From the NCBI GenBank assembly GCA_009914755.4, contig CP086569.2:28384001-28448000 (forward strand): a stretch of DNA of 64,000 nt, in the 5' to 3' direction. Positions 1 through 34,800 of this stretch are shown in pieces. Positions within the stretch are counted from its first letter, which is position 1; every line of letters begins with the position of its first letter. The stretch comes from the human T2T-CHM13v2.0 reference genome, Homo sapiens. The translations under genes and the position numbers were made by a program. A model generated the notes under the pieces. That model did no database searches. It saw only the letters and a program-made list of their open reading frames with translations, and was not told where the DNA came from.

Positions 1-82
1 GAATGGTATGGAATGGATAGTAATGGACTGGAGTGAAATGGACTGGAAAGGAATGGACTCAAATTGAAAGGGCTCGAAAGGA
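1..82. repeat. Partial HOR copy (3' end of the upstream unit)
   Basis: Matches the end of the other HOR copies (for example 3550–3631): ggtatggaatggatagtaatggactggagtgaaatggactggaaagg. Confidence 0.9.
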
Positions 83-10719: not shown

Positions 10720-13700
10720 ATGGAGTCAAATGGAATGGTCTGGAATGGAATGAACACGAATGTAATGCAATCCAATAGAATGGAATCGAATGGCATGGAA
10801 TATAAAGAAATGGAATCGAAGAGAATGGAAACAAATGGAATGGAATTGAATGGAATGGAATTGAATGGAATGGGAACGAATGGAGTGAAATTGTATGCAG
10901 TAGAAGAGAATAGAATGGAATGCAAGCGAAAGGAAAGGAATGGATTGGAATGGAATGGAATTCATTGGAATGGAAGGGAATGTAGTGTAATGGACAGGCC
11001 TGGAATAAAGTGGAATGCTACGGTCTCGAATGGAATAAAAATGTATGGAATGGAATGCAATGAAACGGAATCGAATGTCATAGAATGTAATGGAATGCAA
11101 AAAAATGGACTCCAAAATCATTGACTGGAAAGGCTGGGTGTCGAAAGGAATTGACTCCAATGGAATGGAATCGAATGGAATGGAAGTGAATAGAATCGAA
11201 CTAAATCGAATGGAATGGAATTGATAGGAACGGAATGGAAAGGAATGCAATGATTTGGCATGGAATGGAATCGAATGGCATCTAATGGAATGGTATGGAA
11301 TGCAATGGAATGGAATGTATTAGAATGTAATGAACTTTAATGGAATGTACTCGAATGGATTCGACTGGAATGGAATGTTCTGGAAGTGAATGGACTCCAA
11401 TGGAATGCATTCAAAAGGAATGGAATCGTACGGAATGGAATCTAATGGAATGGAATTAAATGGAAATGAATCAAATTGAATAGCACGGAATTGAATTGAA
11501 TGGAATCGAATGCAATGGAATCTAATGAAACGGAAAGGAAAGGAATGGAATGGAATGGAATGGGCTGGAATGGAAAGGAATCGAAACGAATGGAATGGAA
11601 TCGAACTGAAGAGACTGGAATGGAATGCACTGGAATGGAAGGGAGTGTAATGGAGGGTTCTCGAAAAAAATGGAATCGAATGGAATGGAATTGAATGGAA
11701 CGGAATAGAGTCGAATGGAATTGAATGGAATGGAATGGACTAGAGTGAAATGGAATCGAACCACAAGGAATGGACAGGAATAGAATGGTCTCGAATTGAA
11801 TGGAATCGTATGGAATGGCATCAAACGGAATGGAATGCACTCGAATGCAATGGAGTCGAAACTAATGGACTGGAATAGAATGGACTCGACTGGTACGGAC
11901 TCCAATGGAATGGATTCGAATGGAAGGGAATCGAACGGAATGGACTCGAAGGGAAAAGACTGCAATGGAAAGGTCTCGAATGGAATGGAAATTAGTGGAA
12001 TGGAATGGAATCGAATGAAATGGAGTCAAAAGGAATGGAATCGAATGGCAAGAAATCGAATGTAATGGAATCGCAAGGAATTGATGTGAACGGAACGGAA
12101 TGGAATGGAATCCAAAGGAATGGAATAGAATGGAATGGAATCGAATGGAAAGGACTCGAATGGAAATCACTCGAATAGAATGCAATTTAATAAAATAGGA
12201 TGAAATGTAATGGAATGGAATGGAAAGGAATCGAAACGAAAGGAATGGAGACAGATGGAATGGAATGGAACAGAGAGCAATGGTATAGAATGGAATGCAA
12301 TCATCTGGAATGGAATGGAATGGAATGGAATGGAATGGAATGCCCTTGAATTAAATGGACTGGAATGGAATGGACTCGAACAGAGTGGAATGGAAAGTGT
12401 TGAGATAGAATGGAATGGACTCCTTTGGAATGGTCTAGTATGCAATGCAATGGACTGGCAGGGAATCAAAAGGAATGTAATCGAATGGATTGGACTGGAA
12501 TGCAATGGACTCGAATAGATTGGAAACGGAATGCAAAGGAATGGAATGGAATAGTATGGAATGGAATGGAAAGGAATGGAGTGGAATAGACTAGAGTGGA
12601 ATGGAATGGACTCGAAAGCAATGGACTGGAATGGAACTTTCTTGAATGGACTGGAATCAAACGGAATGGAATGCAATGCAATCAAATGGCATGGAATAAA
12701 ATAGAATGAAAGAGAATCAAATGGAATTGAATCGAATGGAATCGAATGGATTGGAAAGGAATAGAGTGGAATGGAATGGAATTGACTCAAATGGAATGGA
12801 CTAGAATGGAATGGATTCGAATGGAAGGCAAAGGAATGGAATCTATTGGAATGGACAGCAATGGAATGGAAAGGAAGGGATTGGAATGGACTCGAATGGA
12901 ATGGACTGCAATAGAAAGGATTCGAATGGAATGAAAAAGAATTGAATGGAATAGAACAGAATGGAATCAAATCGAATGAAATGGAATGGAATAGAAAGGA
13001 ATGGAATGAAATGGAATGGAAAGGATTCGAATGGAATGCAATCGAATGGAATGGAATCGAACGGAATGGAATAAAATGGAAGCAAACTGGCAAGAAATGG
13101 AATCGAAATGAATGGAGTGTTATGGAACGGACTCAAAAGGAATTGAATGTAATAGAATGGAGTGGAGTGGACTCGAATATAATGGACTGGAATGGAATGA
13201 AATCACATGGAATGGGAACGAATGGAATGGAATGGAAAGGAATGGAATCGAATGGAAAGGAATCGAATGGAAGGGAATGAAATTGAATCAACAGGAATGG
13301 AAGGGAATAGAATAGACGGTAATGGAATGGACTCGAATAGAATGGACACGAATGCTCAAATTGAATGGACTCGAATGGAATGGAAACGAAAGGAATGTCA
13401 TCGAATGGAATTGAATCGATTGGAATGAAATCGCATAGAATGGAGTGGAATCAAATGGAATTGAATCGAAAGGAAAGGAAGCGAATGGACTGAAATGAAA
13501 TGGAATGGAATTGAATGGAAAGTAAAGCAATGGAATAGAATGGAACGAAATTTCACGGAATGGAATCAAACTGAATGGAATCAAATCAATGGAATATAAT
13601 CAAATGGAATGGAAAGGAATTGAATGGAGTAGATGGGATTGGATGGGATTGGAATGAAATGTACTGGAAAGGACTCGAATTTCATGAAACGGCATGGAAT

Positions 13701-14233
13701 GAATTGGAACGGAATGGAATCGAATGGAATGGAATGTCATGGAATGGCATCAAATGGAATGGCATCAAATGGAATGGAATCGAATGCAATGGAATGCAAT
13801 GGAATGGAATGGAATGCATTGGAATAGAATGTCCTCTAATGGAATGGATTCGAGGGGAATGGAATCGAATATAATGGAGTCGAATGAAATGGAATTGAAA
13901 GGAATGGGATCGAATACAATGGAATATACTGGAATGTAATGTAATGAACTCGAATGTAATTGACTGGAATGGAATGTACATGAATGGAATGTAATCGAAT
14001 GGAAAGTAATCCAATGGAATAGAATCTAATGCAAGAAAATCGACTCAGATAGAGTAGAATGTAATGGAATGGAGTGCAGTGCAATGGAATGGAATGGAAT
14101 GCAATGGAATGGAATGGAATGGAATGGAATGGAATGGAATGGAATGGGATGGAATGGTATGGAATGGATAGTAATGGACTGGAGTGAAATGGACTGGAAA
14201 GGAATGGACTCAAATTGAAAGGGCTCGAAAGGA
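10720..14233. repeat. HOR copy 4 (3514 bp)
   Basis: Anchor ORF at 10720..11124. Minus-strand ORFs are conserved with copy 5. Confidence 0.9.
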
Positions 14234-17200
14234 ATGGAGTCAAATGGAATGGTCTGGAATGGAATGAACACGAATGTAATGCAATCCAATAGAATGGAAT
14301 CGAATGGCATGGAATATAAAGAAATGGAATCGAAGAGAATGGAAACAAACGGAATGGAATTGAATGGAATGGAATTGAATGGAATGGGAACGAATGGAGT
14401 GAAATTGTATGCAGTAGAAGAGAATAGAATGGAATGCAAGCGAAAGGAAAGGAATGGATTGGAATGGAATGGAATTCATTGGAATGGAAGGGAATGTAGT
14501 GTAATGGACAGGCCTGGAATAAAGTGGAATGCTACGGTCTCGAATGGAATAAAAATGTATGGAATGGAATGCAATGAAACGGAATCGAATGTCATAGAAT
14601 GTAATGGAATGCAAAAAAATGGACTCCAAAATCATTGACTGGAAAGGCTGGGTGTCGAAAGGAATTGACTCCAATGGAATGGAATCGAATGGAATGGAAG
14701 TGAATAGAATCGAACTAAATCGAATGGAATGGAATTGATAGGAACGGAATGGAAAGGAATGCAATGATTTGGCATGGAATGGAATCGAATGGCATCGAAT
14801 GGAATGGAATGGAATGCAATGGAATGGAATGTATTAGAATGTAATGAACTTTAATGGAATGTACTCGAATGGATTCGACTGGAATGGAATGTTCTGGAAG
14901 TGAATGGACTCCAATGGAATGGATTCAAAAGGAATGGAATCGTACGGAATGGAATCTAATGGAATGGAATTAAATGGAAATGAATGAAATTGAATAGCAC
15001 GGAATTGAATTGAATGGAATCGAATGCAATGGAATCTAATGAAACGGAAAGGAAAGGAATGGAATGGAATGGAATGGGCTGGAATGGAAAGGAATCGAAA
15101 CGAATGGAATGGAATCGAACTGAAGAGACTGGAATGGAATGCACTGGAATGGAAGGGAGTGTAATGGAGGGTTCTCGAAAAAAATGGAATCGAATGGAAT
15201 GGAATTGAATGGAACGGAATAGAGTCGAATGGAATTGAATGGAATGGAATGGACTAGAGTGAAATGGAATCGAACCACAAGGAATGGACAGGAATAGAAT
15301 GGTCTCGAATTGAATGGAATCGTATGGAATGGCATCAAACGGAATGGAATGCACTCGAATGCAATGGAGTCGAAACTAATGGACTGGAATAGAATGGACT
15401 CGACTGGTACGGACTCCAATGGAATGGATTCGAATGGAAGGGAATCGAACGGAATGGACTCGAAGGGAAAAGACTGCAATGGAAAGGTCTCGAATGGAAT
15501 GGAAATTAATGGAATGGAATGGAATCGAATGAAATGGAGTCAAAAGGAATGGAATCGAATGGCAAGAAATCGAATGTAATGGAATCGCAAGGAATTGATG
15601 TGAACGGAACGGAATGGAATGGAATCCAAAGGAATGGAATAGAATGGAATGGAATCGAATGGAAAGGACTCGAATGGAAATCACTCGAATAGAATGCAAT
15701 TTAATAAAATAAGATCAAATGTAATGTAATGGAATGGAAAGGAATCGAAACGAAAGGAATGGAGACAGATGGAATGGAATGGAACAGAGAGCAATGGTAT
15801 AGAATGGAATGGAATCATCTGGAATGGAATTGAATGGAATGGAATAATATGAAATGGAATGGAATGGAATGGAATGCCCTTGAATTAAATGGACTGGAAT
15901 GGAATGGACTCGAACAGAGTGGAATGGAAAGTGTTGAGATAGAATGGAATGGACTCCTTTGGAATGGTCTAGTATGCAATGCAATGGACTGGCAGGGAAT
16001 CAAAAGGAATGTAATCGAATGGATTGGACTGGAATGCAATGGACTCGAATAGATTGGAAACGGAATGCAAAGGAATGGAATGGAATAGTATGGAATGGAA
16101 TGGAAAGGAATGGAGTGGAATAGACTAGAGTGGAATGGAATGGACTCGAAAGCAATGGACTGGAATGGAACTTTCTTGAATGGACTGGAATCAAACGGAA
16201 TGGAATGCAATGCAATCAAATGGCATGGAATAAAACAGAATGAAAGAGAATCAAATGGAATTGAATCGAATGGAATCGAATGGATTGGAAAGGAATAGAG
16301 TGGAATGGAATGGAATTGACTCAAATGGAATGGACTAGAATGGAATGGATTCGAATGGAAGGCAAAGGAATGGAATCTATTGGAATGGACAGCAATGGAA
16401 TGGAAAGGAAGGGATTGGAATGGACTCGAATGGAATGGACTGCAATAGAAAGGATTCGAATGGAATGAAAAAGAATTGAATGGAATAGAACAGAATGGAA
16501 TCAAATCGAATGAAATGGAATGGAATAGAAAGGAATGGAATGAAATGGAATGGAAAGGATTCGAATGGAATGCAATCGAATGGAATGGAATCGAACGGAA
16601 TGGAATAAAATGGAAGCAAACTGGCAAGAAATGGAATCGAAATGAATGGAGTGTTATGGAACGGACTCAAAAGGAATTGAATGTAATAGAATGGAGTGGA
16701 GTGGACTCGAATATAATGGACTGGAATGGAATGAAATCACATGGAATGGGAACGAATGGAATGGAATGGAAAGGAATGGAATCGAATGGAAAGGAATCGA
16801 ATGGAAGGGAATGAAATTGAATCAACAGGAATGGAAGGGAATAGAATAGACGGTAATGGAATGGACTCGAATAGAATGGACACGAATGCTCAAATTGAAT
16901 GGACTCGAATGGAATGGAAACGAAAGGAATGTCATCGAATGGAATTGAATCGATTGGAATGAAATCGCATAGAATGGAGTGGAATCAAATGGAATTGAAT
17001 CGAAAGGAAAAGAAGCGAATGGACTGAAATGAAATGGAATGGAATTGAATGGAAAGTAAAGCAATGGAATAGAATGGAACGAAATTTCACGGAATGGAAT
17101 CAAACTGAATGGAATCAAATCAATGGAATATAATCAAATGGAATGGAAAGGAATTGAATGGAGTAGATGGGATTGGATGGGATTGGAATGAAATGTACTG

Positions 17201-17767
17201 GAAAGGACTCGAATTTCATGAAACGGAATGGAATGAATTGGAACGGAATGGACTCGAATGGAATGGAATGTCATGGAATGGCATCAAATGGAATGGCATC
17301 AAATGGAATGGAATCGAATGCAATGGAATGCTATGGAATGGAATGGAATGCATTGGAATGGAATGTCCTCTAATGGAATGGATTCGAGTGGAATGGAATC
17401 GAATATAATGGAGTCGAATGAAATGGAATTGAAAGGAATGGGATGGAATACAATGGAATATAGTGGAATGTAATGTAATGAACTCGAATGTAATTGACTG
17501 GAATGGAATGTACATGAATGGAATGTAATCGAATGGAAAGTAATCCAATGGAATAGAATCTAATGCAATAAAATCGACTCAGATAGAGTAGAATGTAATG
17601 GAATGGAGTGCAGTGCAATGGAATGGAATGGAATGGAATGCAATGGAATGGAATGGAATGGAATGGAATGGAATGGAATGGGATGGAATGGTATGGAATG
17701 GATAGTAATGGACTAGAGTGAAATGGACTGGAAAGGAATGGACTCAAATTGAAAGGGCTCGAAAGGA
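14234..17767. repeat. HOR copy 5 (3534 bp)
   Basis: Anchor ORF at 14234..14638 is identical in translation to copy 4. Confidence 0.9.
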
Positions 17768-20700
17768 ATGGAGTCAAATGGAATGGTCTGGAATGGAATG
17801 AACACGAATGTAATGCAATCCAATAGAATGGAATCGAATGGCATGGAATATAAAGAAATGGAATCGAAGAGAATGGAAACAAACGGAATGGAATTGAATG
17901 GAATGGAATTGAATGGAATGGGAACGAATGGAGTGAAATTGTATGCAGTAGAAGAGAATAGAGTGGAATGCAAGCGAAAGGAAAGGAATGGATTGGAATG
18001 GAATGGAATTCATTGGAATGGAAGGGAATGTAGTGTAATGGACAGGCCTGCAATAAAGTGGAATGCTACGGTCTCGAATGGAATAAAAATGTATGGAATG
18101 GAATGCAATGAAACGGAATCGAATGTCATAGAATGTAATGGAATGCAAAAAAATGGACTCCAAAATCATTGACTGGAAAGGCTGGGTGTCGAAAGGAATT
18201 GACTCCAATGGAATGGAATCGAATGGAATGGAAGTGAATAGAATCGAACTAAATCGAATGGAATGGAATTGATAGGAACGGAATGGAAAGGAATGAAATG
18301 ATTTGGTATGGAATGGAATCGAATGGCATCGAATGGAATGGAATGGAATGCAAGGCAATGTAATGTATTAGAATGTAATGAACTTTAATGGAATGTACTC
18401 GAATGGATTCGACTGGAATGGAATGTTCTGGAAGTGAATGGACTCCAATGGAATGGATTGAAAAGGAATGGAATCGTACGGAATGGAATCTAATGGAATG
18501 GAATTAAATGGAAATGAATCAAATTGAATAGCACGGAATTGAATTGAATGGAATCGAATGCAATGGAATCTAATGAAACGGAAAGGAAAGGAATGGAATG
18601 GAATGGAATGGGCTGGAATGGAAAGGAATCGAAACGAATGGAATGGAATCGAACTGAAGAGACTGGAATGGAATGCACTGGAATGGAAGGGAGTGTAATG
18701 GAAGGTTCTCGAAAAAAATGGAATCGAATGGAATGGAATTGAATGGAACGGAATAGAGTCGAATGGAATTGAATGGAATGGAATGGACTAGAGTGAAATG
18801 GAATCGAACCACAAGGAATGGACAGGAATAGAATGGTTTCGAATTGAACGGAATCGTATGGAATGGCATCAAACGGAATGGAATGGACAGCCACGGAATG
18901 GAATGCACTCGAATGCAATGGAGTCGAAACTAATGGACTGGAATAGAATGGACTCGACTGGTACGGACTCCAATGGAATGGAATCGAATGGAAGGGAATC
19001 GAACGGAATGGACTCGAAGGGAAAAGACTGCAATGGAAAGGTCTCGAATGGAATGGAAATTAATGGAATGGAATGGAATCGAATGAAATGGAGTCAAAAG
19101 GAATGGAATCGAATGGCAAGAAATCGAATGTAATGGAATCGCAAGGAATTGATGTGAACGGAACGGAATGGAATGGAATCCAAAGGAATGGAATAGAATG
19201 GAATGGAATCGAATGGAAAGGACTCGAATGGAAATCACTCGAATAGAATGCAATTTAATAAAATAGGATGAAATGTAATGGAATGGAATGGAAAGGAATC
19301 GAAACGAAAGGAATGGAGACAGATGGAATGGAATGGAACAGAGAGCAATGGTATAGAATGGAATGGAATCATCTGCAATGGAATTGAATGGAATGGAATA
19401 ACATGAAATGGAATGGAATGGAAAGAAATGCCCTTGAATTAAATGGACTGGAATGGAATGGACTCGAACAGAGTGGAATGGAAAGTGTTGAGATAGAATG
19501 GAATGGACTCCTTTGGAATGGTCTAGTATGCAATGCAATCGACTGGCAGGGAATCAAAAGGAATGTAATCGAATGGATTGGACTGCAATGCAATGGACTC
19601 GAATAGATTGGAAACGGAATGCAAAGGAATGGAATGGAATAGTATGGAATGGAATGGAAAGGAATGGAGTGGAATAGACTAGAGTGGAATGGAATGGACT
19701 CGAAAGCAATGGACTGGAATGGAACTTTCTTGAATGGACTGGAATCAAACGGAATGGAATGCAATGCAATCAAATGGCATGGAATAAAATAGAATTAAAG
19801 AGAATCAAATGGAATTGAATCGAATGGAATCGAATGGATTGGAAAGGAATAGAATGGAATGGAATGGAATTGACTCAAATGGAATGGATTCGAATGGAAG
19901 GCAAAGGAATGGAATCTATTGGAATGGACTGCAATGGAATGGAAAGGAAGGGATTGGAATGGACTCGAATGGAATGGACTGCAATAGAAAGGATTCGAAT
20001 GGAATGAAAAAGAATTGAATGGAATAGAACAGAATGGAATCAAATCGAATGAAATGGAATGGAATAGAAAGGAATGGAATGAAATGGAATGGAAAGGATT
20101 CGAATGGAATGCAATCGAATGGAATGGAATCGAACGGAATGGAATAAAATGGAAGCAAACTGGCAAGAAATGGAATCGAAATGAATGGAGTGTTATGGAA
20201 CGGACTCAAAAGGAATTGAATGTAATAGAATGGAGTGGAGTGGACTCGAATATAATGGACTGGAATGGAATGAAATCACATGGAATGGGAACGAATGGAA
20301 TGGAATGGAAAGGAATGGAATCGAATGGAAAGGAATCGAATGGAAGGGAATGAAATTGAATCAACAGGAATGGAAGGGAATAGAATAGACGGTAATGGAA
20401 TGGACTCGAATGGACACGAATGCTCAAATTGAATGGACTCGAATGGAATGGAAACGAAAGGAATGTCATCGAATGGAATTGAATCGATTGGAATGAAATC
20501 GCATAGAATGGAGTGGAATCAAATGGAATTGAATCGAAAGGAAAGGAAGCGAATGGACTGAAATGAAATGGAATGGAATTGAATGGAAAGTAAAGCAATG
20601 GAATAGAATGGAACGAAATTTCACGGAATGGAATCAAACTGAATGGAATCAAATCAATGGAATATAATCAAATGGAATGGAAAGGAATTGAATGGAGTAG

Positions 20701-21296
20701 ATGGGATTGGATGGGATTGGAATGAAATGTACTGGAAAGGACTCGAATTTCATGAAACGGAATGGAATGAATTGGAACGGAATGGACTCGAATGGAATGG
20801 AATGTCATGGAATGGCATCAAATGGAATGGCATCAAATGGCATGGAATCGAATGCAATGGAATGCTATGGAATGGAATGGAATGCATTGGAATGGAATGT
20901 TCTCTAATGGAATGGATTCGAGTGGAATGGAATCGAATATAATGGAGTCGAATGAAATGGAATTGAAAGGAATGGGATCGAATACAATGGAATATAGTGG
21001 AATGTAATGTAATGAACTCGAATGTAATTGACTGGAATGGAATGTACATGAATGGAATGTAATTGAATGGAAAGTAATCCAATGGAATAGAATCTAATGC
21101 AATAAAATCGACTCAGATAGAGTAGAATGTAATGGAATGGAGTGCAGTGCAATGGAATGGAATGGAATGGAATGCAATGGAATGGAATGGAATGGAATGG
21201 AATGGAATGGGATGGAATGGTATGGAATGGATAGTAATGGACTGGAGTGAAATGGACTGGAAAGGAATGGACTCAAATTGAAAGGGCTCGAAAGGA
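17768..21296. repeat. HOR copy 6 (3529 bp); 15-bp-deletion subtype; first unit of the duplicated dimer
   Basis: Anchor ORF at 17768..18172 (variant NRVECK). Rare variants MHSTLFSS, HSTIFHCIPSHS and GMGWNTMEYSGM are shared only with copy 8. Around 19.88 kb it lacks ggactagaatggaat. Confidence 0.9.
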
Positions 21297-24200
21297 ATGG
21301 AGTCAAATGGAATGGTCTGGAATGGAATGAACACGAATGTAATGCAATCCAATAGAATGGAATCGAATGGCATGGAATATAAAGAAATGGAATCGAAGAG
21401 AATGGAAACAAACGGAATGGAATTGAATGGAATGGAATTGAATGGAATGGGAACGAATGGAGTGAAATTGTATGCAGTAGAAGAAAATAGAATGGAATGC
21501 AAGCGAAAGGAAAAGAATGTATTGGAATGGAATGGAATTCATTGGAATGGAAGGGAATGTAGTGTAATGGACAGGCCTGGAATAAAGTGGAATGCTACGG
21601 TCTCGAATGGAATAAAAATGTATGGAATGGAATGCAATGAAACGGAATCGAATGTCATAGAATGTAATGGAATGCAAAAAAATGGAATCCAAAATCATTG
21701 ACTGGAAAGTCTGGATGTCGAAAGGAATTGACTCCAATGGAATGGAATCGAATGGAATGGAAGTGAATAGAATCGAACTAAATCGAATGGAATGGAATTG
21801 ATAGGAACGGAATGGAAAGGAATGAAATGATTTGGCATGGAATGGAATCGAATGGCATCGAATGGAATGGAATGGAATGCAATACAATGGAATGTATTAG
21901 AATGTAATGAACTTTAATGGAATGTACTCGAATGGATTCGACTGGAATGGAATGTTCTGGAAGTGAATGGACTCCAATGGAATGGATTGAAAAGGAATGG
22001 AATCGTACGGAATGGAATCTAATGGAATGGAATTAAATGGAAATGAATCAAATTGAATAGCACGGAATTGAATTGAATGGAATCGAATGCAATGGAATCT
22101 AATGAAACGGAAAGGAAAGGAATGGAATGGAATGGAATGGGCTGGAATGGAAAGGAATCGAAACGAATGGAATGGAAACGAACTGAAGAGACTGGAATGG
22201 AATGCACTGGAATGGAAGGGAGTGTAATGGAAGGTTCTCGAAAAAAGTGGAATCGAATGGAATGGAATTGAATGGAAGGGAATAGGGTCGAATGGAATTG
22301 AATGGAATGGAATGGACTAGAGTGAAATGGAATCGAACCACAAGGAATGGACAGGAATAGAATGGTCTCGAATTGAATGGAATCGTATGGAATGGCATCA
22401 AACGGAATGGAATGGAATGCACTCGAATGCAATGGAGTCGAAACTAATGGACTGGAATAGAATGGACTCGACTGGTACGGACTCCAATGGAATGGAATCG
22501 AATGGAAGGGAATCGAACGGAATGGACTCGAAGGGAAAAGACTGCAATGGAAAGGTCTCGAATGGAATGGAAATTAATGGAATGGAATGGAATCGAATGA
22601 AATGGAGTCAAAAGGAATGGAATCGAATGGCAAGAAATCGAATGTAATGGAATCGCAAGGAATTGATGTGAACGGAACTGAATGGAATGGAATCCAAAGG
22701 AATGGAATAGAATGGAATGGAATCGAATGGAAAGGACTCGAATGGAAATCACTCGAATAGAATGCAATTTAATAAAATAGGATGAAATGTAATGGAATGG
22801 AATGGAAAGGAATCGAAATGAAAGGAATGGAGACAGATGGAATGGAATGGAACAGAGAGCAATGGTATAGAATGGAATGGAATCATCTGGAATGGTATTG
22901 AATGGAATGGAATAACATGAAATGGAATGGAATGGAATGGAATGCCCTTTAATTAAATGGACTGGAATGGAATGGACTCGAACAGAGTGGAATGGAAAGT
23001 GTTGAGATAGAATGGAATGGACTCCTTTGGAATGGTCTAGTATGCAATGCAATCGACTGGCAGGGAATCAAAAGGAATGTAATGGAATGGATTGGACTGG
23101 AATGCAATGGACTCGAATAGATTGGAAACGGAATGCAAAGGAATGGAATGGAATAGTATGGAATGGAATGGAAAGGAATGGAGTGGAATAGACTAGAGTG
23201 GAATGGAATGGACTCGAAAGCAATGGACTGGAATGGAACTTTCTTGAATGGACTGGAATCAAACGGAATGGAATGCAATGCAATCAAATGGCATGGAATA
23301 AAACAGAATGAAAGAGAATCAAATGGAATTGAATCGAATGGAATCGAATGGATTGGAAAGGAATAGAGTGGAATGGAATGGAATTGACTCAAATGGAATG
23401 GACTAGAATGGAATGGATTCGAATGGAAGGCAAAGGAATGGAATCTATTGGAATGGACAGCAATGGAATGGAAAGGAAGGGATTGGAATGGACTCGAATG
23501 GAATGGACTGCAATAGAAAGGATTCGAATGGAATGAAAAAGAATTGAATGGAATAGAACAGAATGGAATCAAATCGAATGAAATGGAATGGAATAGAAAG
23601 GAATGGAATGAAATGGAATGGAAAGGATTCGAATGGAATGCAATCGAATGGAATGGAATCGAACGGAATGGAATAAAATGGAAGCAAACTGGCAAGAAAT
23701 GGAATCGAAATGAATGGAGTGTTATGGAACGGACTCAAAAGGAATTGAATGTAATAGAATGGAGTGGAGTGGACTCGAATATAATGGACTGGAATGGAAT
23801 GAAATCACATGGAATGGGAACGAATGGAATGGAATGGAAAGGAATGGAATCGAATGGAAAGGAATCGAATGGAAGGGAATGAAATTGAATCAACAGGAAT
23901 GGAAGGGAATAGAATAGACGGTAATGGAATGGACTCGAATAGAATGGACACGAATGCTCAAATTGAATGGACTCGAATGGAATGGAAACGAAAGGAATGT
24001 CATCGAATGGAATTGAATCGATTGGAATGAAATCGCATAGAATGGAGTGGAATCAAATGGAATTGAATCGAAAGGAAAAGAAGCGAATGGACTGAAATGA
24101 AATGGAATGGAATTGAATGGAAAGTAAAGCAATGGAATAGAATGGAACGAAATTTCACGGAATGGAATCAAACTGAATGGAATCAAATCAATGGAATATA

Positions 24201-24835
24201 ATCAAATGGAATGGAAAGGAATTGAATGGAGTAGATGGGATTGGATGGGATTGGAATGAAATGTACTGGAAAGGACTCGAATTTCATGAAACGGAATGGA
24301 ATGAATTGGAACGGAATGGACTCGAATGGAATGGAATGTCATGGAATGGCATCAAATGGAATGGCATCAAATGGAATGGAATCGAATGCAATGGAATGCT
24401 ATGGAATGGAATGGAATGCATTGGAATGGAATGTCCTCTAATGGAATGGATTCGAGTGGAATGGAATCGAATATAATGGAGTCGAATGAAATGGAATTGA
24501 AAGGAATGGGATGGAATACAATGGAATATAGTGGAATGTAATGTAATGAACTCGAATGTAATTGACTGGAATGGAATGTACATGAATGGAATGTAATCGA
24601 ATGGAAAGTAATCCAATGGAATAGAATCTAATGCAATAAAATCGACTCAGATAGAGTAGAATGTAATGGAATGGAGTGCAGTGCAATGGAATGGAATGGA
24701 ATGGAATGCAATGGAATGGAATGGAATGGAATGGAATGGAATGGAATGGGATGGAATGGTATGGAATGGATAGTAATGGACTAGAGTGAAATGGACTGGA
24801 AAGGAATGGACTCAAATTGAAAGGGCTCGAAAGGA
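21297..24835. repeat. HOR copy 7 (3539 bp); second unit of the duplicated dimer
   Basis: Anchor ORF at 21297..21701 (KEKNVLEWNG, NGIQNH). Its translation is identical to copy 10 and differs by one residue from copy 9. Confidence 0.9.
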
Positions 24836-27800
24836 ATGGAGTCAAATGGAATGGTCTGGAATGGAATGAACACGAATGTAATGCAATCCAATAGAATGGA
24901 ATCGAATGGCATGGAATATAAAGAAATGGAATCGAAGAGAATGGAAACAAACGGAATGGAATTGAATGGAATGGAATTGAATGGAATGGGAACGAATGGA
25001 GTGAAATTGTATGCAGTAGAAGAGAATAGAGTGGAATGCAAGCGAAAGGAAAGGAATGGATTGGAATGGAATGGAATTCATTGGAATGGAAGGGAATGTA
25101 GTGTAATGGACAGGCCTGGAATAAAGTGGAATGCTACGGTCTCGAATGGAATAAAAATGTATGGAATGGAATGCAATGAAACGGAATCGAATGTCATAGA
25201 ATGTAATGGAATGCAAAAAAATGGACTCCAAAATCATTGACTGGAAAGGCTGGGTGTCGAAAGGAATTGACTCCAATGGAATGGAATCGAATGGAATGGA
25301 AGTGAATAGAATCGAACTAAATCGAATGGAATGGAATTGATAGGAACGGAATGGAAAGGAATGAAATGATTTGGTATGGAATGGAATCGAATGGCATCGA
25401 ATGGAATGGAATGGAATGCAAGGCAATGTAATGTATTAGAATGTAATGAACTTTAATGGAATGTACTCGAATGGATTCGACTGGAATGGAATGTTCTGGA
25501 AGTGAATGGACTCCAATGGAATGGATTGAAAAGGAATGGAATCGTACGGAATGGAATCTAATGGAATGGAATTAAATGGAAATGAATCAAATTGAATAGC
25601 ACGGAATTGAATTGAATGGAATCGAATGCAATGGAATCTAATGAAACGGAAAGGAAAGGAATGGAATGGAATGGAATGGGCTGGAATGGAAAGGAATCGA
25701 AACGAATGGAATGGAATCGAACTGAAGAGACTGGAATGGAATGCACTGGAATGGAAGGGAGTGTAATGGAAGGTTCTCGAAAAAAATGGAATCGAATGGA
25801 ATGGAATTGAATGGAACGGAATAGAGTCGAATGGAATTGAATGGAATGGAATGGACTAGAGTGAAATGGAATCGAACCACAAGGAATGGACAGGAATAGA
25901 ATGGTTTCGAATTGAACGGAATCGTATGGAATGGCATCAAACGGAATGGAATGGACAGCCACGGAATGGAATGCACTCGAATGCAATGGAGTCGAAACTA
26001 ATGGACTGGAATAGAATGGACTCGACTGGTACGGACTCCAATGGAATGGAATCGAATGGAAGGGAATCGAACGGAATGGACTCGAAGGGAAAAGACTGCA
26101 ATGGAAAGGTCTCGAATGGAATGGAAATTAATGGAATGGAATGGAATCGAATGAAATGGAGTCAAAAGGAATGGAATCGAATGGCAAGAAATCGAATGTA
26201 ATGGAATCGCAAGGAATTGATGTGAACGGAACGGAATGGAATGGAATCCAAAGGAATGGAATAGAATGGAATGGAATCGAATGGAAAGGACTCGAATGGA
26301 AATCACTCGAATAGAATGCAATTTAATAAAATAGGATGAAATGTAATGGAATGGAATGGAAAGGAATCGAAACGAAAGGAATGGAGACAGATGGAATGGA
26401 ATGGAACAGAGAGCAATGGTATAGAATGGAATGGAATCATCTGCAATGGAATTGAATGGAATGGAATAACATGAAATGGAATGGAATGGAAAGAAATGCC
26501 CTTGAATTAAATGGACTGGAATGGAATGGACTCGAACAGAGTGGAATGGAAAGTGTTGAGATAGAATGGAATGGACTCCTTTGGAATGGTCTAGTATGCA
26601 ATGCAATCGACTGGCAGGGAATCAAAAGGAATGTAATCGAATGGATTGGACTGCAATGCAATGGACTCGAATAGATTGGAAACGGAATGCAAAGGAATGG
26701 AATGGAATAGTATGGAATGGAATGGAAAGGAATGGAGTGGAATAGACTAGAGTGGAATGGAATGGACTCGAAAGCAATGGACTGGAATGGAACTTTCTTG
26801 AATGGACTGGAATCAAACGGAATGGAATGCAATGCAATCAAATGGCATGGAATAAAATAGAATTAAAGAGAATCAAATGGAATTGAATCGAATGGAATCG
26901 AATGGATTGGAAAGGAATAGAATGGAATGGAATGGAATTGACTCAAATGGAATGGATTCGAATGGAAGGCAAAGGAATGGAATCTATTGGAATGGACTGC
27001 AATGGAATGGAAAGGAAGGGATTGGAATGGACTCGAATGGAATGGACTGCAATAGAAAGGATTCGAATGGAATGAAAAAGAATTGAATGGAATAGAACAG
27101 AATGGAATCAAATCGAATGAAATGGAATGGAATAGAAAGGAATGGAATGAAATGGAATGGAAAGGATTCGAATGGAATGCAATCGAATGGAATGGAATCG
27201 AACGGAATGGAATAAAATGGAAGCAAACTGGCAAGAAATGGAATCGAAATGAATGGAGTGTTATGGAACGGACTCAAAAGGAATTGAATGTAATAGAATG
27301 GAGTGGAGTGGACTCGAATATAATGGACTGGAATGGAATGAAATCACATGGAATGGGAACGAATGGAATGGAATGGAAAGGAATGGAATCGAATGGAAAG
27401 GAATCGAATGGAAGGGAATGAAATTGAATCAACAGGAATGGAAGGGAATAGAATAGACGGTAATGGAATGGACTCGAATGGACACGAATGCTCAAATTGA
27501 ATGGACTCGAATGGAATGGAAACGAAAGGAATGTCATCGAATGGAATTGAATCGATTGGAATGAAATCGCATAGAATGGAGTGGAATCAAATGGAATTGA
27601 ATCGAAAGGAAAGGAAGCGAATGGACTGAAATGAAATGGAATGGAATTGAATGGAAAGTAAAGCAATGGAATAGAATGGAACGAAATTTCACGGAATGGA
27701 ATCAAACTGAATGGAATCAAATCAATGGAATATAATCAAATGGAATGGAAAGGAATTGAATGGAGTAGATGGGATTGGATGGGATTGGAATGAAATGTAC

Positions 27801-28364
27801 TGGAAAGGACTCGAATTTCATGAAACGGAATGGAATGAATTGGAACGGAATGGACTCGAATGGAATGGAATGTCATGGAATGGCATCAAATGGAATGGCA
27901 TCAAATGGCATGGAATCGAATGCAATGGAATGCTATGGAATGGAATGGAATGCATTGGAATGGAATGTTCTCTAATGGAATGGATTCGAGTGGAATGGAA
28001 TCGAATATAATGGAGTCGAATGAAATGAAATTGAAAGGAATGGGATCGAATACAATGGAATATAGTGGAATGTAATGTAATGAACTCGAATGTAATTGAC
28101 TGGAATGGAATGTACATGAATGGAATGTAATTGAATGGAAAGTAATCCAATGGAATAGAATCTAATGCAATAAAATCGACTCAGATAGAGTAGAATGTAA
28201 TGGAATGGAGTGCAGTGCAATGGAATGGAATGGAATGGAATGCAATGGAATGGAATGGAATGGAATGGAATGGAATGGGATGGAATGGTATGGAATGGAT
28301 AGTAATGGACTGGAGTGAAATGGACTGGAAAGGAATGGACTCAAATTGAAAGGGCTCGAAAGGA
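24836..28364. repeat. HOR copy 8 (3529 bp); near-identical duplicate of copy 6
   Basis: Anchor ORF at 24836..25240. Minus-strand ORFs 25558..25986, 25998..26606, 26437..26841 and 26863..27234 translate identically to their copy-6 counterparts 7068 bp upstream. Confidence 0.9.
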
Positions 28365-31300
28365 ATGGAGTCAAATGGAATGGTCTGGAATGGAATGAAC
28401 ACGAATGTAATGCAATCCAATAGAATGGAATCGAATGGCATGGAATATAAAGAAATGGAATCGAAGAGAATGGAAACAAACGGAATGGAATTGAATGGAA
28501 TGGAATTGAATGGAATGGGAACGAATGGAGTGAAATTGTATGCAGTAGAAGAAAATAGAATGGAATGCAAGCGAAAGGAAAAGAATTTATTGGAATGGAA
28601 TGGAATTCATTGGAATGGAAGGGAATGTAGTGTAATGGACAGGCCTGGAATAAAGTGGAATGCTACGGTCTCGAATGGAATAAAAATGTATGGAATGGAA
28701 TGCAATGAAACGGAATCGAATGTCATAGAATGTAATGGAATGCAAAAAAATGGAATCCAAAATCATTGACTGGAAAGTCTGGATGTCGAAAGGAATTGAC
28801 TCCAATGGAATGGAATCGAATGGAATGGAAGTGAATAGAATCGAACTAAATCGAATGGAATGGAATTGATAGGAACGGAATGGAAAGGAATGAAATGATT
28901 TGGCATGGAATGGAATCGAATGGCATCGAATGGAATGGAATGGAATGCAATACAATGGAATGTATTAGAATGTAATGAACTTTAATGGAATGTACTCGAA
29001 TGGATTCGACTGGAATGGAATGTTCTGGAAGTGAATGGACTCCAATGGAATGGATTGAAAAGGAATGGAATCGTACGGAATGGAATCTAATGGAATGGAA
29101 TTAAATGGAAATGAATCAAATTGAATAGCACGGAATTGAATTGAATGGAATCGAATGCAATGGAATCTAATGAAACGGAAAGGAAAGGAATGGAATGGAA
29201 TGGAATGGGCTGGAATGGAAAGGAATCGAAACGAATGGAATGGAAACGAACTGAAGAGACTGGAATGGAATGCACTGGAATGGAAGGGAGTGTAATGGAA
29301 GGTTCTCGAAAAAAGTGGAATCGAATGGAATGGAATTGAATGGAAGGGAATAGGGTCGAATGGAATTGAATGGAATGGAATGGACTAGAGTGAAATGGAA
29401 TCGAACCACAAGGAATGGACAGGAATAGAATGGTCTCGAATTGAATGGAATCGTATGGAATGGCATCAAACGGAATGGAATGGAATGCACTCGAATGCAA
29501 TGGAGTCGAAACTAATGGACTGGAATAGAATGGACTCGACTGGTACGGACTCCAATGGAATGGAATCGAATGGAAGGGAATCGAACGGAATGGACTCGAA
29601 GGGAAAAGACTGCAATGGAAAGGTCTCGAATGGAATGGAAATTAATGGAATGGAATGGAATCGAATGAAATGGAGTCAAAAGGAATGGAATCGAATGGCA
29701 AGAAATCGAATGTAATGGAATCGCAAGGAATTGATGTGAACGGAACTGAATGGAATGGAATCCAAAGGAATGGAATAGAATGGAATGGAATCGAATGGAA
29801 AGGACTCGAATGGAAATCACTCGAATAGAATGCAATTTAATAAAATAGGATGAAATGTAATGGAATGGAATGGAAAGGAATCGAAATGAAAGGAATGGAG
29901 ACAGATGGAATGGAATGGAACAGAGAGCAATGGTATAGAATGGAATGGAATCATCTGGAATGGTATTGAATGGAATGGAATAACATGAAATGGAATGGAA
30001 TGGAATGGAATGCCCTTTAATTAAATGGACTGGAATGGAATGGACTCGAACAGAGTGGAATGGAAAGTGTTGAGATAGAATGGAATGGACTCCTTTGGAA
30101 TGGTCTAGTATGCAATGCAATCGACTGGCAGGGAATCAAAAGGAATGTAATGGAATGGATTGGACTGGAATGCAATGGACTCGAATAGATTGGAAACGGA
30201 ATGCAAAGGAATGGAATGGAATAGTATGGAATGGAATGGAAAGGAATGGAGTGGAATAGACTAGAGTGGAATGGAATGGACTCGAAAGCAATGGACTGGA
30301 ATGGAACTTTCTTGAATGGACTGGAATCAAACGGAATGGAATGCAATGCAATCAAATGGCATGGAATAAAATAGAATGAAAGAGAATCAAATGGAATTGA
30401 ATCGAATGGAATCGAATGGATTGGAAAGGAATAGAATGGAATGGAATGGAATTGACTCAAATGGAATGGATTCGAATGGAAGGCAAAGGAATGGAATCTA
30501 TTGGAATGGACTGCAATGGAATGGAAAGGAAGGGATTGGAATGGACTCGAATGGAATGGACTGCAATAGAAAGGATTCGAATGGAATGAAAAAGAATTGA
30601 ATGGAATAGAACAGAATGGAATCAAATCGAATGAAATGGAATGGAATAGAAAGGAATGGAATGAAATGGAATGGAAAGGATTCGAATGGAATGCAATCGA
30701 ATGGAATGGAATCGAACGGAATGGAATAAAATGGAAGAAAACTGGCAAGAAATGGAATCGAAATGAATGGAGTGTTATGGAACGGACTCAAAAGGAATTG
30801 AATGTAATAGAATGGAGTGGAGTGGACTCGAATATAATGGACTGGAATGGAATGAAATCACATGGAATGGGAACGAATGGAATGGAATGGAAAGGAATGG
30901 AATCGAATGGAAAGGAATCGAATGGTAGGGAATGAAATTGAATCAACAGGAATGGAAGGGAATAGAATAGACGGTAATGGAATGGACTCGAATAGAATGG
31001 ACACGAATGCTCAAATTGAATGGACTCGAATGGAATGGAAACGAAAGGAATGTCATCGAATGGAATTGAATCGGTTGGAATGAAATCGCATAGAATGGAG
31101 TGGAATCAAATGGAATTGAATCGAAAGGAAAGGAAGCGAATGGACTGAAATGAAATGGAATGGAATTGAATGGAAAGTAAAGCAATGGAATAGAATGGAA
31201 CGAAATTTCACGGAATGGAATCAAACTGAATGGAATCAAATCAATGGAATATAATCAAATGGAATGGAAAGGAATTGAATGGAGTAGATGGGATTGGATG

Positions 31301-31892
31301 GGATTGGAATGAAATGTACTGGAAAGGACTCGAATTTCATGAAACGGAATGGAATGAATTGGAACGGAATGGACTCGAATGGAATGGAATGTCATGGAAT
31401 GGCATCAAATGGAATGGCATCAAATGGAATGGAATCGAATGCAATGGAATGCTATGGAATGGAATGGAATGCATTGGAATGGAATGTTCTCTAATGGAAT
31501 GGATTCGAGTGGAATGGAATCGAATATAATGGAGTCGAATGAAATGGAATTGAAAGGAATGGGATCGAATACAATGGAATATACTGGAATGTAATGTAAT
31601 GAACTCGAATGTAATTGACTGGAATGGAATGTACATGAATGGAATGTAATCGAATGGAAAGTAATCCAAAGGAATAGAATCTAATGCAATAAAATCGACT
31701 CAGATAGAGTAGAATGTAATGGAATGGATTGCAGTGCAATGGAATGGAATGGAATGGATGGAATGCAATGGAATGGAATGGAATGGAATGGAATGGAATG
31801 GAATGGGATGGAATGCTATGGAATGGATAGTAATGGACTGGAGTGAAATGGACTGGAAAGGAATGGACTCAAATTGAAAGGGCTCGAAAGGA
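28365..31892. repeat. HOR copy 9 (3528 bp); duplicate of copy 7 over its 5' part; 15-bp-deletion subtype
   Basis: Anchor ORF at 28365..28769. ORFs 29087..29500 and 29512..30120 are identical to 22019..22432 and 22444..23052. The 15-bp deletion near 30.46 kb is absent from copy 7. Confidence 0.9.
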
Positions 31893-34800
31893 ATGGAGTC
31901 AAATGGAATGGTCTGGAATGGAATGAACACGAATGTAATGCAATCCAATAGAATGGAATCGAATGGCATGGAATATAAAGAAATGGAATCGAAGAGAATG
32001 GAAACAAACGGAATGGAATTGAATGGAATGGAATTGAATGGAATGGGAACGAATGGAGTGAAATTGTATGCAGTAGAAGAAAATAGAATGGAATGCAAGC
32101 GAAAGGAAAAGAATGTATTGGAATGGAATGGAATTCATTGGAATGGAAGGGAATGTAGTGTAATGGACAGGCCTGGAATAAAGTGGAATGCTACGGTCTC
32201 GAATGGAATAAAAATGTATGGAATGGAATGCAATGAAACGGAATCGAATGTCATAGAATGTAATGGAATGCAAAAAAATGGAATCCAAAATCATTGACAG
32301 GAAAGGCTGGATGTCGAAAGGAATTGACTCCAATGGAATGGAATCGAATGGAATGGAAGTGAATAGAATCGAACTAAATCGAATGGAATGGAATTGATAG
32401 TAACGGAATGGAAAGGAATGAAATGATTTGTCATGGAATGGAATCGAATGGCATCGAATGGAATGGAATGGAATGCAATGGAATGGAATGTATTAGAATG
32501 TAATGAACTTTAATGGAATGTACTCGAATGGATTCGACTGGAATGGAATGTTCTGGAAGTGAATGGACTCCAATGGAATGGATTGAAAAGGAATGGAATC
32601 GTACGGAATGGAATCTAATGGAATGGAATTAAATGGAAATGAATCAAATTGAATAGCACGGAATTGAATTGAATGGAATCGAATGCAATGGAATCTAATG
32701 AAACGGAAAGGAAAGGAATGGAATGGAATGGAATGGGCTGGAATGGAAAGGAATCGAAACGAATGGAATGGAATCGAACTGAAGAGACTGGAATGGAATG
32801 CACTGGAATGGAAGGAAGTGTAATGGAAGGTTCTCGAAAAAAATGGAATCGAATGGAATGGAATTGAATGGAACGGAATAGAGTCGAATGGAATTGAATG
32901 GAATGGAATGGACTAGAGTGAAATGGAATCGAACCACAAGGAATGGACAGGAATAGAATGGTCTCGATTTGAACGGAATCGTATGGAATGGCATCAAACG
33001 GAATGGAATGGACAGCCACGGAATGGAATGCACTCGAATGCAATGGAGTCGAAACTAATGGACTGGAATAGAATGGACTCGACTGGTACGGACTCCAATG
33101 GAATGGAATCGAATGGAAGGGAATCGAACGGAATGGACTCGAAGGGAAAAGACTGCAATGGAAAGGTCTCGAATGGAATGGAAATTAATGGAATGGAATG
33201 GAATCGAATGAAATGGAGTCAAAAGGAATGGAATCGAATGGCAAGAAATCGAATGTAATGGAATCGCAAGGAATGGATGTGAACGGAACGGAATGGAATG
33301 GAATCCAAAGGAATGGAATAGAATGGAATGGAATCGAATGGAAAGGACTCGAATGGAAATCACTCGAATAGAATGCAATTTAATAAAATAGGATCAAATG
33401 TAATGGAATGGAATGGAAAGGAATCGAAACGAAAGGAATGGAGACACATGGAATGGAATGGAACAGAGAGCAATGGTATAGAATGGAATGGAATGATCTG
33501 GAATGGAATTGAATGGAATGGAATAATATGAAATGGAATGGAGTGGAATGGAATGCCCTTGAATTAAATGGACTGGAATGGAATGGACTCGAACAGAGTG
33601 GAATGGAAAGTGTTGAGATAGAATGGAATGGACTCCTTTGGAATGCTCTAGTATGCAATGCAATGGACTGGCAGGGAATCAAAAGGAATGTAATCGAATG
33701 GATTGGACTGGAATGCAATGGACTCGAATAGATTGGAAACGGAATGCAAAGGAATGGAATGGAATAGTATGGAATGGAATGGAAAGGAATGGAGTGGAAT
33801 AGACTAGAGTGGAATGGAATGGACTCGAAAGCAATGGACTGGAATGGAACTTTCTTGAATGGACTGGAATCAAACGGAATGGAATGCAATGCAATCAAAT
33901 GGCATGGAATAAAATAGAATGAAAGAGAATCAAATGGAATTGAATCGAATGGAATCGAATGGATTGGAAAGGAATAGAATGGAATGGAATGGAATTGACT
34001 CAAATGGAATGGACTAGAATGGAATGGATTCGAATGGAAGGCAAAGGAATGGAATCTATTGGAATGGACTGTAATGGAATGGAATGGAAGGGATTGGAAT
34101 GGACTCGAATGGAATGGACTGCAATAGAAAGGATTCGAATGGAATGAAAAAGAATTGAATGGAATAGAACAGAATGGAATCAAATCGAATGAAATGGAAT
34201 GGAATAGAAAGGAATGGAATGAAATGGAATGGAAAGGATTCCAATGGAATGCAATCGAATGGAATGGAATCGAACGGAATGGAATAAAATGGAAGCAAAC
34301 TGGCAAGAAATGGAATCGAAATGAATGGAGTGTTATGGAACGGACTCAAAAGGAATTGAATGTAATAGAATGGAGTGGAGTGGACTCGAATATAATGGAC
34401 TGGAATGGAATGAAATCACATGGAATGGGAACGAATGGAATGGAATGGAAAGGAATGGAATCGAATGGAAAGGAATCGAATGGAAGGGAATGAAATTGAA
34501 TCAACAGGAATGGAAGGGAATAGAATAGACGGTAATGGAATGGACTCGAATAGAATGGACACGAATGCTCAAATTGAATGGACTCGAATGGAATGGAAAC
34601 GAAAGGAATGTCATCGAATGGAATTGAATCGATTGGAATGAAATCGCATAGAATGGAGTGGAATCAAATGGAATTGAATCGAAAGGAAAGGAAGCGAATG
34701 GACTGAAATGAAATGGAATGGAATTGAATGGAAAGTAATGCAATGGAATAGAATGGAACGAAATTTCACGGAATGGAATCAAACTGAATGGAATCAAATC

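What the first reader, a model, noticed from the sequence alone, without database searches (positions are those of the whole stretch)
16100..30350. Recent tandem duplication of a two-HOR dimer (~7.07 kb × 2) inside the array
Spurious-ORF translations that carry rare variants are identical at an offset of exactly 7068 bp. 17768..18172 matches 24836..25240 except for one residue. 18490..18918 equals 25558..25986. 18930..19538 equals 25998..26606. 19369..19773 equals 26437..26841. 20206..20652 equals 27274..27720. 22019..22432 equals 29087..29500. 22444..23052 equals 29512..30120. Private variants are seen only in these pairs: MHSTLFSS, HSTIFHCIPSHS, GMGWNTMEYSGM, LIKGHSIPF...NTIPDD and VQSIPLHSF. 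Identity breaks down near 16.0–16.2 kb on the left and near 23.29 kb versus 30.36 kb on the right. Adjacent HOR copies elsewhere in the window differ at many of these same positions. This points to a very recent unequal sister-chromatid exchange that duplicated a dimer, giving a super-HOR layer above the 3.5-kb HOR.
Basis: seen in the sequence. Interest (0 to 1): 0.5.

Follow-up and report, generated by a model that had tools for sequence, protein, structure and literature searches.

The report
Young two-unit duplication in DYZ1 satellite
The window is human Y-chromosome-type DYZ1 (HSat3A6) satellite, and inside it a 7,068-bp block of two repeat units really has been duplicated head to tail very recently, which is the normal, already documented way such arrays grow.

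Summary
At an offset of exactly 7,068 bp, 16017-23303 matches 23085-30371 over 7,287 ungapped bases with 3 mismatches. The next-best near-identical run in the window is 2,478 bp with 6 mismatches. When the array is phased into 17 full units, V5/V7 differ by 0.03% and V6/V8 by 0.06%, against 0.46-2.19% for every other pair.

The two copies share 20 clean substitutions found in no other unit. Each of the three differences is a singleton in one copy, so it arose after the duplication.

The identical run equals the offset plus 219 bp. That pattern fits a true tandem duplication and does not fit a gene-conversion tract.

The array is DYZ1/HSat3A6:
- about 3.5-kb units with one HaeIII site each
- about 231 GGAAT per unit
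- 38-40% GC and 1 CpG per 35 bp
- the HSat3A6 marker 24-mer 30 times, and markers of the other 13 HSat2/3 subfamilies 0 times
- published DYZ1 primers matching once per unit

The "super-HOR layer" is not supported. There are only 2.03 copies, and outside the block divergence at lag 2 equals that at lags 1 and 3.

Unequal exchange, tandem duplications and whole-unit de novo gains and losses in Yq12 are already published. This is a real but ordinary event, of low interest.

The parts
1..64000 (-). Uninterrupted DYZ1 / HSat3A6 satellite array. It holds about 18.1 units of 3,493-3,568 bp. The + strand reads GGAAT, so the published TTCCA/CATTC orientation is on the - strand.
   Evidence: TRF calls one pentamer-derived array across 1-63996. 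There are 18 GGCC sites, one per unit. The HSat3A6 marker 24-mer occurs 30 times on the - strand, and markers of the other 13 subfamilies occur 0 times. DYZ1 primers C, D, E and F each match exactly 18 times. GC is 38-40%. There are 231 GGAAT per unit and 1 CpG per 34.7 bp.
16017..23084 (.). Copy A of the duplicated dimer, made of unit V5 (16017-19570, 3,554 bp) and unit V6 (19571-23084, 3,514 bp).
   Evidence: V5 against V7 shows 1 substitution and 0 gap columns. V6 against V8 shows 2 substitutions and 0 gap columns.
23085..30152 (.). Copy B of the duplicated dimer, made of unit V7 (23085-26638) and unit V8 (26639-30152).
   Evidence: V5+V7 share 8 clean substitutions private to that pair, and V6+V8 share 12.
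23085..23303 (.). Junction, or breakpoint window. This 219-bp tract is identical at 16017-16235, 23085-23303 and 30153-30371. The exchange point lies somewhere inside it and cannot be placed more finely.
   Evidence: One search confirms the three-way identity. One search shows the flanking mismatches at 16016 and at 23304/30372.
30153..30371 (.). Start of the downstream unit V9. It happens to be identical to the start of V5 and V7, and this extends the identical run beyond one period.
18051..18051 (+). Substitution after the duplication, in copy A. This site has C where all 16 other units have G.
28028..28028 (+). Substitution after the duplication, in copy B. This site has A where all 16 other units have G.
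28587..28587 (+). Substitution after the duplication, in copy B. This site has T where all 16 other units have G.

Best explanation
The window is a stretch of human-type Y-chromosome DYZ1 (HSat3A6) pentameric satellite. It is non-coding and built of tandem units of about 3.5 kb.

The ancestral order was ...V4-V5-V6-V9.... A homologous exchange between copies misaligned by exactly two units produced ...V4-V5-V6-V5'-V6'-V9..., adding 7,068 bp. The most likely form is unequal sister-chromatid exchange, because this region has no meiotic partner. The exchange point lies within a 219-bp tract that the start of V5 and the start of V9 share perfectly.

Three point substitutions have accumulated since then, one in copy A and two in copy B.

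Shown: the duplication, its limits, its youth relative to other units, and the identity of the satellite family.

Inferred: the exchange mechanism, the sister chromatid as partner, and the absolute age. The age is about 550 generations (95% interval 113-1,607) at the pedigree Yq12 rate of 3.86e-7 per bp per generation. It is about 8,500 generations at an assumed euchromatic Y rate of about 2.5e-8 per bp per generation, which is my own approximation and is not taken from a cited paper.

No biological function is implied. This is ordinary array turnover.
For: - **Size of the match.** A 7,287-bp ungapped run with 3 mismatches at offset 7068 is by far the longest near-identical repeat in the window.
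- **Unit matrix.** V5/V7 differ by 0.03% and V6/V8 by 0.06%, against 0.46-2.19% for the other 134 pairs. The two pairs also have zero indel differences.
- **Offset.** It equals the sum of two unit lengths, 3,554 + 3,514 bp.
- **Shared and private variants.** There are 8 + 12 clean substitutions private to the two pairs, against 1, 0, 0 and 2 singletons in V5-V8. Other units carry 2-30 singletons.
- **The three differences.** Each is a singleton against a G that is invariant in the other 16 units, so they are new mutations and not converted alleles.
- **Run length.** Run length minus offset is 219 bp. Chance extension into flanks that are about 1.5% diverged accounts for that, and this is the signature of a duplication.
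- **Tree.** NJ places V5/V7 and V6/V8 as two sister pairs with near-zero tips, in different sub-clades.
- **Literature.**
  - A four-generation pedigree found about one de novo SV per Y transmission, each adding or removing whole Yq12 (DYZ2) units (PMC12240836).
Against: No reads were available, so a false expansion by the assembler cannot be excluded directly. No orthologous Y haplotype lacking the duplication was available to show the ancestral state. The sequence cannot tell unequal crossover from replication-based mechanisms such as fork slippage or break-induced replication with template switching. The de novo whole-unit SVs seen in pedigrees were all in DYZ2, not DYZ1.
Confidence: 0.85

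Rival explanations
1. Non-reciprocal gene conversion. Four units were already present, and a tract of about 7 kb from V5-V6 overwrote the neighbouring pair V7-V8 without changing copy number.
For: Interlocus gene conversion is active in Yq12. In pedigrees, 29% of de novo SNVs matched non-orthologous sites (PMC12240836), and 17% of events were classed as conversion in 10.64898/2026.06.03.729890. Conversion would also copy indels, and that is compatible with the zero gap differences seen.
Against: The identical run (7,287 bp) equals the donor-acceptor offset (7,068 bp) plus 219 bp. A conversion tract has no reason to match the offset to within 3%. The tract would also be longer than a few kb, and that upper range is from my own knowledge and was not checked against a paper. 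The other partial-identity segments in the window are 1.3-2.5 kb. The identity is uniform across both units and has no mosaic edges.
Confidence: 0.05
2. Assembly artefact. A single V5-V6 dimer was falsely expanded into two copies by the assembler, and the three differences are consensus or polishing errors.
For: Satellite arrays are the regions most prone to mis-assembly. In 142 Y assemblies many issues were flagged in repetitive classes (10.64898/2026.06.03.729890). No reads could be examined here.
Against: The two copies are not identical. They differ by three clean substitutions, none in a homopolymer and none an indel, which is not the usual long-read error profile. The whole structure with its flanks is about 14.4 kb and carries many private variants. 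I expect single HiFi or ONT reads to span that, so such a structure is normally resolved. The flanks join cleanly in register.
Confidence: 0.05
3. A replication-based tandem duplication produced the same product without a crossover. Candidates are fork stalling with template switching, or break-induced replication re-invading two units out of register.
For: The product is the same as for unequal exchange: a perfectly in-register junction inside a 219-bp identity tract. Established knowledge holds that pentameric satellites form non-B DNA and stall forks. [quoted passage not shown]
Against: Nothing in the sequence discriminates. There is no microhomology-only junction, inserted base or inversion that would point specifically to template switching.
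Confidence: 0.1

Closest known systems
DYZ1 / HSat3A6 satellite of human Yq12
   Same: - Unit of about 3.5 kb with a single HaeIII site. Compare the 3.4/3.56-kb HaeIII fragment in PMC3925983 and the virtual HaeIII digest in 10.1101/2022.12.01.518658.
- Pentamer-derived, with 231 perfect GGAAT per unit, against 184-235 TTCCA per unit in PMC3925983.
- GC 38-40% and 1 CpG per 34.7 bp, against 38% and 1 per 35 bp in 10.1101/2022.12.01.518658.
- The HSat3A6 marker 24-mer is present 30 times, and markers of all 13 other HSat2/3 subfamilies are absent (Table 1 of PMC4022460).
- DYZ1 primers C, D, E and F match exactly once per unit.
- Units are 97.8-99.5% identical, against 'over 98%' in T2T-Y.
   Different: None of the 17 HaeIII fragments has the canonical 3,564 or 3,569 bp length; they range from 3,493 to 3,568 bp. 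Primer A of PMC3925983 matches only with 2 mismatches, and primer H only if an indel is allowed. Chromosomal location and species could not be tested, because no human or primate genome collection was available.
Recent tandem duplications in Yq12 by unequal exchange (T2T-Y, Extended Data Fig. 8), and de novo whole-unit SVs in Yq12 (four-generation pedigree)
   Same: It is a head-to-tail, in-register gain of an integer number of satellite units. The copies are nearly identical and sit in a background diverged by 1-2%.
   Different: The scale differs. The T2T-Y examples reach 5 Mb and span multiple DYZ1 and DYZ2 blocks. The pedigree SVs were 2.4-4.8 kb and all in DYZ2. This event is 7.07 kb, or two DYZ1 units.
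Higher-order repeat (HOR) or 'super-HOR' organisation as in alpha satellite
   Same: A multi-unit block is repeated as a block.
   Different: There are only two copies, and the rest of the window shows no lag-2 periodicity. This is a single duplication event and not a periodic layer.

Membership tests
DYZ1 / HSat3A6 | Tandem unit of about 3.5-3.6 kb | tested here: met
   Best local offsets are 3,493-3,568 bp. Spacing between anchors and between GGCC sites is 3,493-3,568 bp.
DYZ1 / HSat3A6 | One HaeIII (GGCC) site per unit, giving the male-specific 3.4/3.56-kb band | tested here: met
   There are exactly 18 GGCC sites in 64 kb, one per unit. The feature is described in PMC3925983 and 10.1101/2022.12.01.518658.
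DYZ1 / HSat3A6 | Derived from the pentamer TTCCA/CATTC, with about 184-235 perfect pentamers per unit | tested here: met
   TRF periods are 10 and 15 across the whole window. There are 4,185 GGAAT, or 231 per unit. The published range is in Table 1 of PMC3925983.
DYZ1 / HSat3A6 | Carries the subfamily-specific 24-mer of HSat3A6 and not those of other HSat2/3 subfamilies | tested here: met
   TCGTTTCGATTCCTTTCCATTCCA gives 30 exact hits on the - strand. The most common specific 24-mers of the 13 other subfamilies give 0 hits (k-mers from Table 1 of PMC4022460). Only one marker per subfamily was available.
DYZ1 / HSat3A6 | Matches published DYZ1 PCR primers | tested here: met
   For the PMC3925983 primers, C, D, E and F match exactly 18 times each, B and G match 17-18 times with 1 mismatch, A matches 16 times with 2 mismatches, and H matches only if an indel is allowed. 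Two 23-mers that I recalled from memory as the classic 154-bp Y-sexing primers match 18 and 19 times and define a 154-bp amplicon at 224-377. Their published source could not be confirmed in the paper library.
DYZ1 / HSat3A6 | Base composition of about 38% GC and about 1 CpG per 35 bp | tested here: met
   GC is 37.7-39.7%. CpG density is 1 per 34.7 bp. The published values are in 10.1101/2022.12.01.518658.
DYZ1 / HSat3A6 | Located in Yq12, male-specific, in blocks alternating with DYZ2/HSat1B | not testable with these tools
   No human genome collection was available. The window holds no DYZ2. That is expected, because DYZ1 blocks are 50 kb to 3.6 Mb long.
Tandem duplication by unequal homologous exchange | Two adjacent head-to-tail copies with no spacer, and an offset equal to an integer number of units | tested here: met
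   The offset of 7,068 bp equals 3,554 + 3,514 bp, and copy B starts at the base after copy A ends.
Tandem duplication by unequal homologous exchange | Copies far more alike than any other unit pair and sharing derived variants | tested here: met
   Divergence is 0.03% and 0.06% against at least 0.46% for other pairs. The pairs share 20 private clean substitutions.
Tandem duplication by unequal homologous exchange | Identical run only slightly longer than one period, which separates duplication from a conversion tract | tested here: met
   The run of 7,287 bp equals 7,068 + 219 bp. Exact runs of 219 bp or more are common between V5 and V9 and cover 48% of bases.
Tandem duplication by unequal homologous exchange | An ancestral, unduplicated allele exists in related chromosomes, and reads support both copies | not testable with these tools
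   Neither reads nor other Y assemblies were available.
Super-HOR (dimeric higher-order periodicity) | Units two apart are systematically more alike than adjacent units across the array | tested here: not met
   Outside V5-V8, divergence is 1.39% at lag 1, 1.41% at lag 2 and 1.42% at lag 3. With the duplicate collapsed, divergence rises steadily with lag.
Super-HOR (dimeric higher-order periodicity) | Three or more consecutive copies of the multi-unit block | tested here: not met
   There are 2.03 copies. V9 differs from V5 and V7 by 1.16-1.19%.

The most novel reading that the evidence does not exclude
The V5-V6 dimer straddles a boundary between two unit lineages: V5 groups with V1-V4, and V6 groups with V9 and V11. 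It could be the first step of a new 7.07-kb periodicity that is being amplified, or is amplified further elsewhere in the same array outside this window. That would catch the birth of a higher-order layer in DYZ1.
Probability: 0.05. Interest if true: 0.35.

Novelty: already known. Interest (0 to 1): 0.12.

Why it matters
It matters little beyond bookkeeping. It is a clean, base-resolved example of how DYZ1 arrays gain units, with breakpoints placed within a 219-bp window. The event could serve as a Y-lineage structural marker or as a check on local assembly correctness. It does not change the understanding of satellite evolution. Unequal exchange, tandem duplication and whole-unit de novo SVs in Yq12 are already described in the T2T-Y, 43-Y and four-generation pedigree papers.

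Tried and rejected
- **Global ungapped autocorrelation.** It was dominated by 5- and 15-bp periods, because indels of 5-bp multiples de-phase the units. I replaced it with local best-offset scans and diagonal run finding.
- **Primer source.** I tried to confirm from the literature the two 23-mer Y-sexing primers I recalled. Three paper searches and two papers read gave nothing, so that source remains from memory. I used the published DYZ1 primers of PMC3925983 and the Altemose 24-mers instead.
- **Unusually long breakpoint tract.** I tested whether the 219-bp tract points to a recombination preference. It does not, because 48% of V5-vs-V9 bases lie in exact runs of 219 bp or more.
- **Dimeric super-HOR across the window.** Rejected.
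- **Gene conversion as the source of the three differences.** Rejected, because each derived allele is absent from all other 16 units in the window.
- **Structured RNA.** The Rfam scan of the whole window found nothing at gathering thresholds.
Full report
**What the window is**

The whole 64-kb window is one uninterrupted array derived from the pentamer GGAAT. TRF gives periods of 10 and 15 over 1-63996. GC is a uniform 38-40% and strand skew is strong.

Local offset scans show a higher-order unit of about 3.5 kb, with offsets of 3,493-3,568 bp. There are exactly 18 GGCC (HaeIII) sites, one per unit.

The features match the Y-chromosome satellite DYZ1 = HSat3A6 as published:
- Unit size is about 3.5-3.6 kb, defined by HaeIII.
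- There are 231 perfect GGAAT per unit, against 184-235 TTCCA per unit in PMC3925983.
- CpG density is 1 per 34.7 bp and GC about 38%, against 1 per 35 bp and 38% in 10.1101/2022.12.01.518658.
- The commonest HSat3A6-specific 24-mer from Table 1 of PMC4022460 occurs 30 times on the - strand. The corresponding markers of all 13 other HSat2/3 subfamilies occur 0 times.
- Published DYZ1 primers C, D, E and F match exactly once per unit.

Two 23-mers that I recalled from memory as classic Y-sexing primers also match once per unit and bracket 154 bp. I could not confirm their source in the paper library.

Chromosomal location and species could not be tested, because no human or primate collection was available. 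None of the 17 HaeIII fragments has the canonical 3,564 or 3,569 bp length.

**Checking the observation**

At an offset of exactly 7,068 bp, 16017-23303 equals 23085-30371. That is 7,287 bases with no indels and three mismatches, at 18051, 20960 and 21519.

A search of all diagonals for near-identical runs puts this one first by a wide margin. The runner-up is 2,478 bp with 6 mismatches.

I phased the array at position 16017 into 17 complete units (V1-V17) and aligned them. V5/V7 differ at 1 site (0.03%) and V6/V8 at 2 sites (0.06%), with no indel differences. All other pairs differ by 0.46-2.19% and by up to 113 gap columns.

About 100 mismatches are expected at the background lag-2 divergence. 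The Poisson probability of 3 or fewer is about 1e-38, and it is 5e-11 even against the closest other pair.

The only correction is that MHSTLFSS is literally HSTLFSS after a non-ATG start.

**What it is**

The offset equals the sum of two unit lengths, 3,554 + 3,514 bp. So one two-unit block, V5-V6, is present twice, head to tail.

V5+V7 share 8 clean substitutions found in no other unit, and V6+V8 share 12. V5-V8 carry only 1, 0, 0 and 2 singletons, where other units carry 2-30.

Each of the three differences is a singleton against a base that is invariant in the other 16 units. They are therefore new mutations after the event, not alleles imported by conversion.

In the NJ tree the two pairs are sisters with near-zero tips and lie in different sub-clades. 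V5/V7 group with V1-V4, and V6/V8 with V9 and V11. The ancestral order was therefore V4-V5-V6-V9.

The 219 bases at 16017-16235, 23085-23303 and 30153-30371 are identical in all three places. The exchange point lies within this tract. Tracts of this length are common between V5 and V9, so nothing special can be read into it.

**Mechanism**

The identical run exceeds one period by only 219 bp. That is what a true duplication predicts: one period, plus a chance extension into flanks diverged by about 1.5%.

A gene-conversion tract has no reason to match the donor-acceptor offset to within 3%. I therefore favour a gain in copy number over conversion.

The region is male-specific heterochromatin with no meiotic partner. 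Sister-chromatid exchanges in Yq12 are seen directly by Strand-seq, and T2T-Y attributes its recent tandem duplications to unequal exchange. Unequal sister-chromatid exchange is therefore the most likely route. This is inference, and replication-based template switching would leave the same product.

A false assembly expansion cannot be excluded without reads. The three clean substitutions between the copies argue against it.

**Age**

Three differences in 7,068 bp give about 550 generations (95% interval 113-1,607) at the pedigree-measured Yq12 rate of 3.86e-7 per bp per generation (PMC12240836; computed). At an assumed euchromatic Y rate of about 2.5e-8 per bp per generation they give about 8,500 generations; that rate is my own approximation (0.8e-9 per year × 30 years) and is not from a cited paper. 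'Very recent' is therefore fair only in relative terms.

**The 'super-HOR' claim**

Outside V5-V8, mean divergence is 1.39%, 1.41% and 1.42% at lags 1, 2 and 3. With the duplicate collapsed, divergence simply rises with distance. There are 2.03 copies of the dimer, and V9 differs from V5 and V7 by about 1.2%. This is one event, not a periodic layer.

**Comparison with what is known, and verdict**

Several relevant facts about Yq12 are already published:
- Tandem duplication by unequal exchange.
- More homogeneous repeat units towards the middle of arrays.
- Whole-unit de novo gains or losses at about one per Y transmission, though the observed ones were in DYZ2.
- Frequent conversion.

The finding is a correct and nicely resolved instance of a known process in a known satellite. 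No RNA family matches the window, and the ORFs are translation artefacts of a pentamer repeat. Interest is low.

Noticed in passing
window 8805-11282 vs 12319-14796 (units V3 8969-12482 and V4 12483-16016): This is the second-closest unit pair in the window. It differs by 0.46% (16 substitutions) and 20 gap columns, and includes a 2,478-bp ungapped run with 6 mismatches at offset 3514. It looks like an older single-unit duplication or conversion.
   Followed up: partly
window 12319-13692 vs 15853-17226, and 8620-9917 vs 15668-16965: Two further near-identical segments exist: 1,374 bp with 2 mismatches, and 1,298 bp with 1 mismatch. Both span unit boundaries and cross the left edge of the duplication. 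This suggests that the V3, V4 and V5 starts were homogenised earlier.
   Followed up: no
window 30153-62038 vs 1886-30152: Divergence rises across the window. Singleton substitutions per unit are 0-11 in V1-V8 and 10-30 in V9-V17, with V14 and V15 the most diverged. The NJ tree separates a left-hand clade (V1-V9, V11) from the rest. The window may run from a homogenised zone towards a more diverged one.
   Followed up: partly
window 54982-62038 (V16, V17): These adjacent units share 9 private substitutions but differ by 1.09% and by 73 gap columns. V17 is the shortest unit at 3,493 bp. This looks like an old adjacent duplication followed by deletions.
   Followed up: no
whole window; GGCC sites at 360, 3909... 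60513: HaeIII fragment lengths are 3,493-3,568 bp, and most differ from one another by multiples of 5 bp. None equals the canonical 3,564 bp (PMC3925983) or the 3,569 bp reported as most abundant in 6 of 7 assembled Y chromosomes (10.1101/2022.12.01.518658).
   Followed up: no
window 18051, 28028, 28587: All three substitutions after the duplication replace a G on the GGAAT strand (G>C, G>A, G>T), and none is at a CpG. With n = 3 this is too few to call a strand bias.
   Followed up: no
units V5, V7, V10; V2, V12; V11, V14: Some non-adjacent units have identical indel patterns, with zero differing gap columns, while differing by 1.4-1.9% in substitutions. So length variants are shared across the array.
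   Followed up: no
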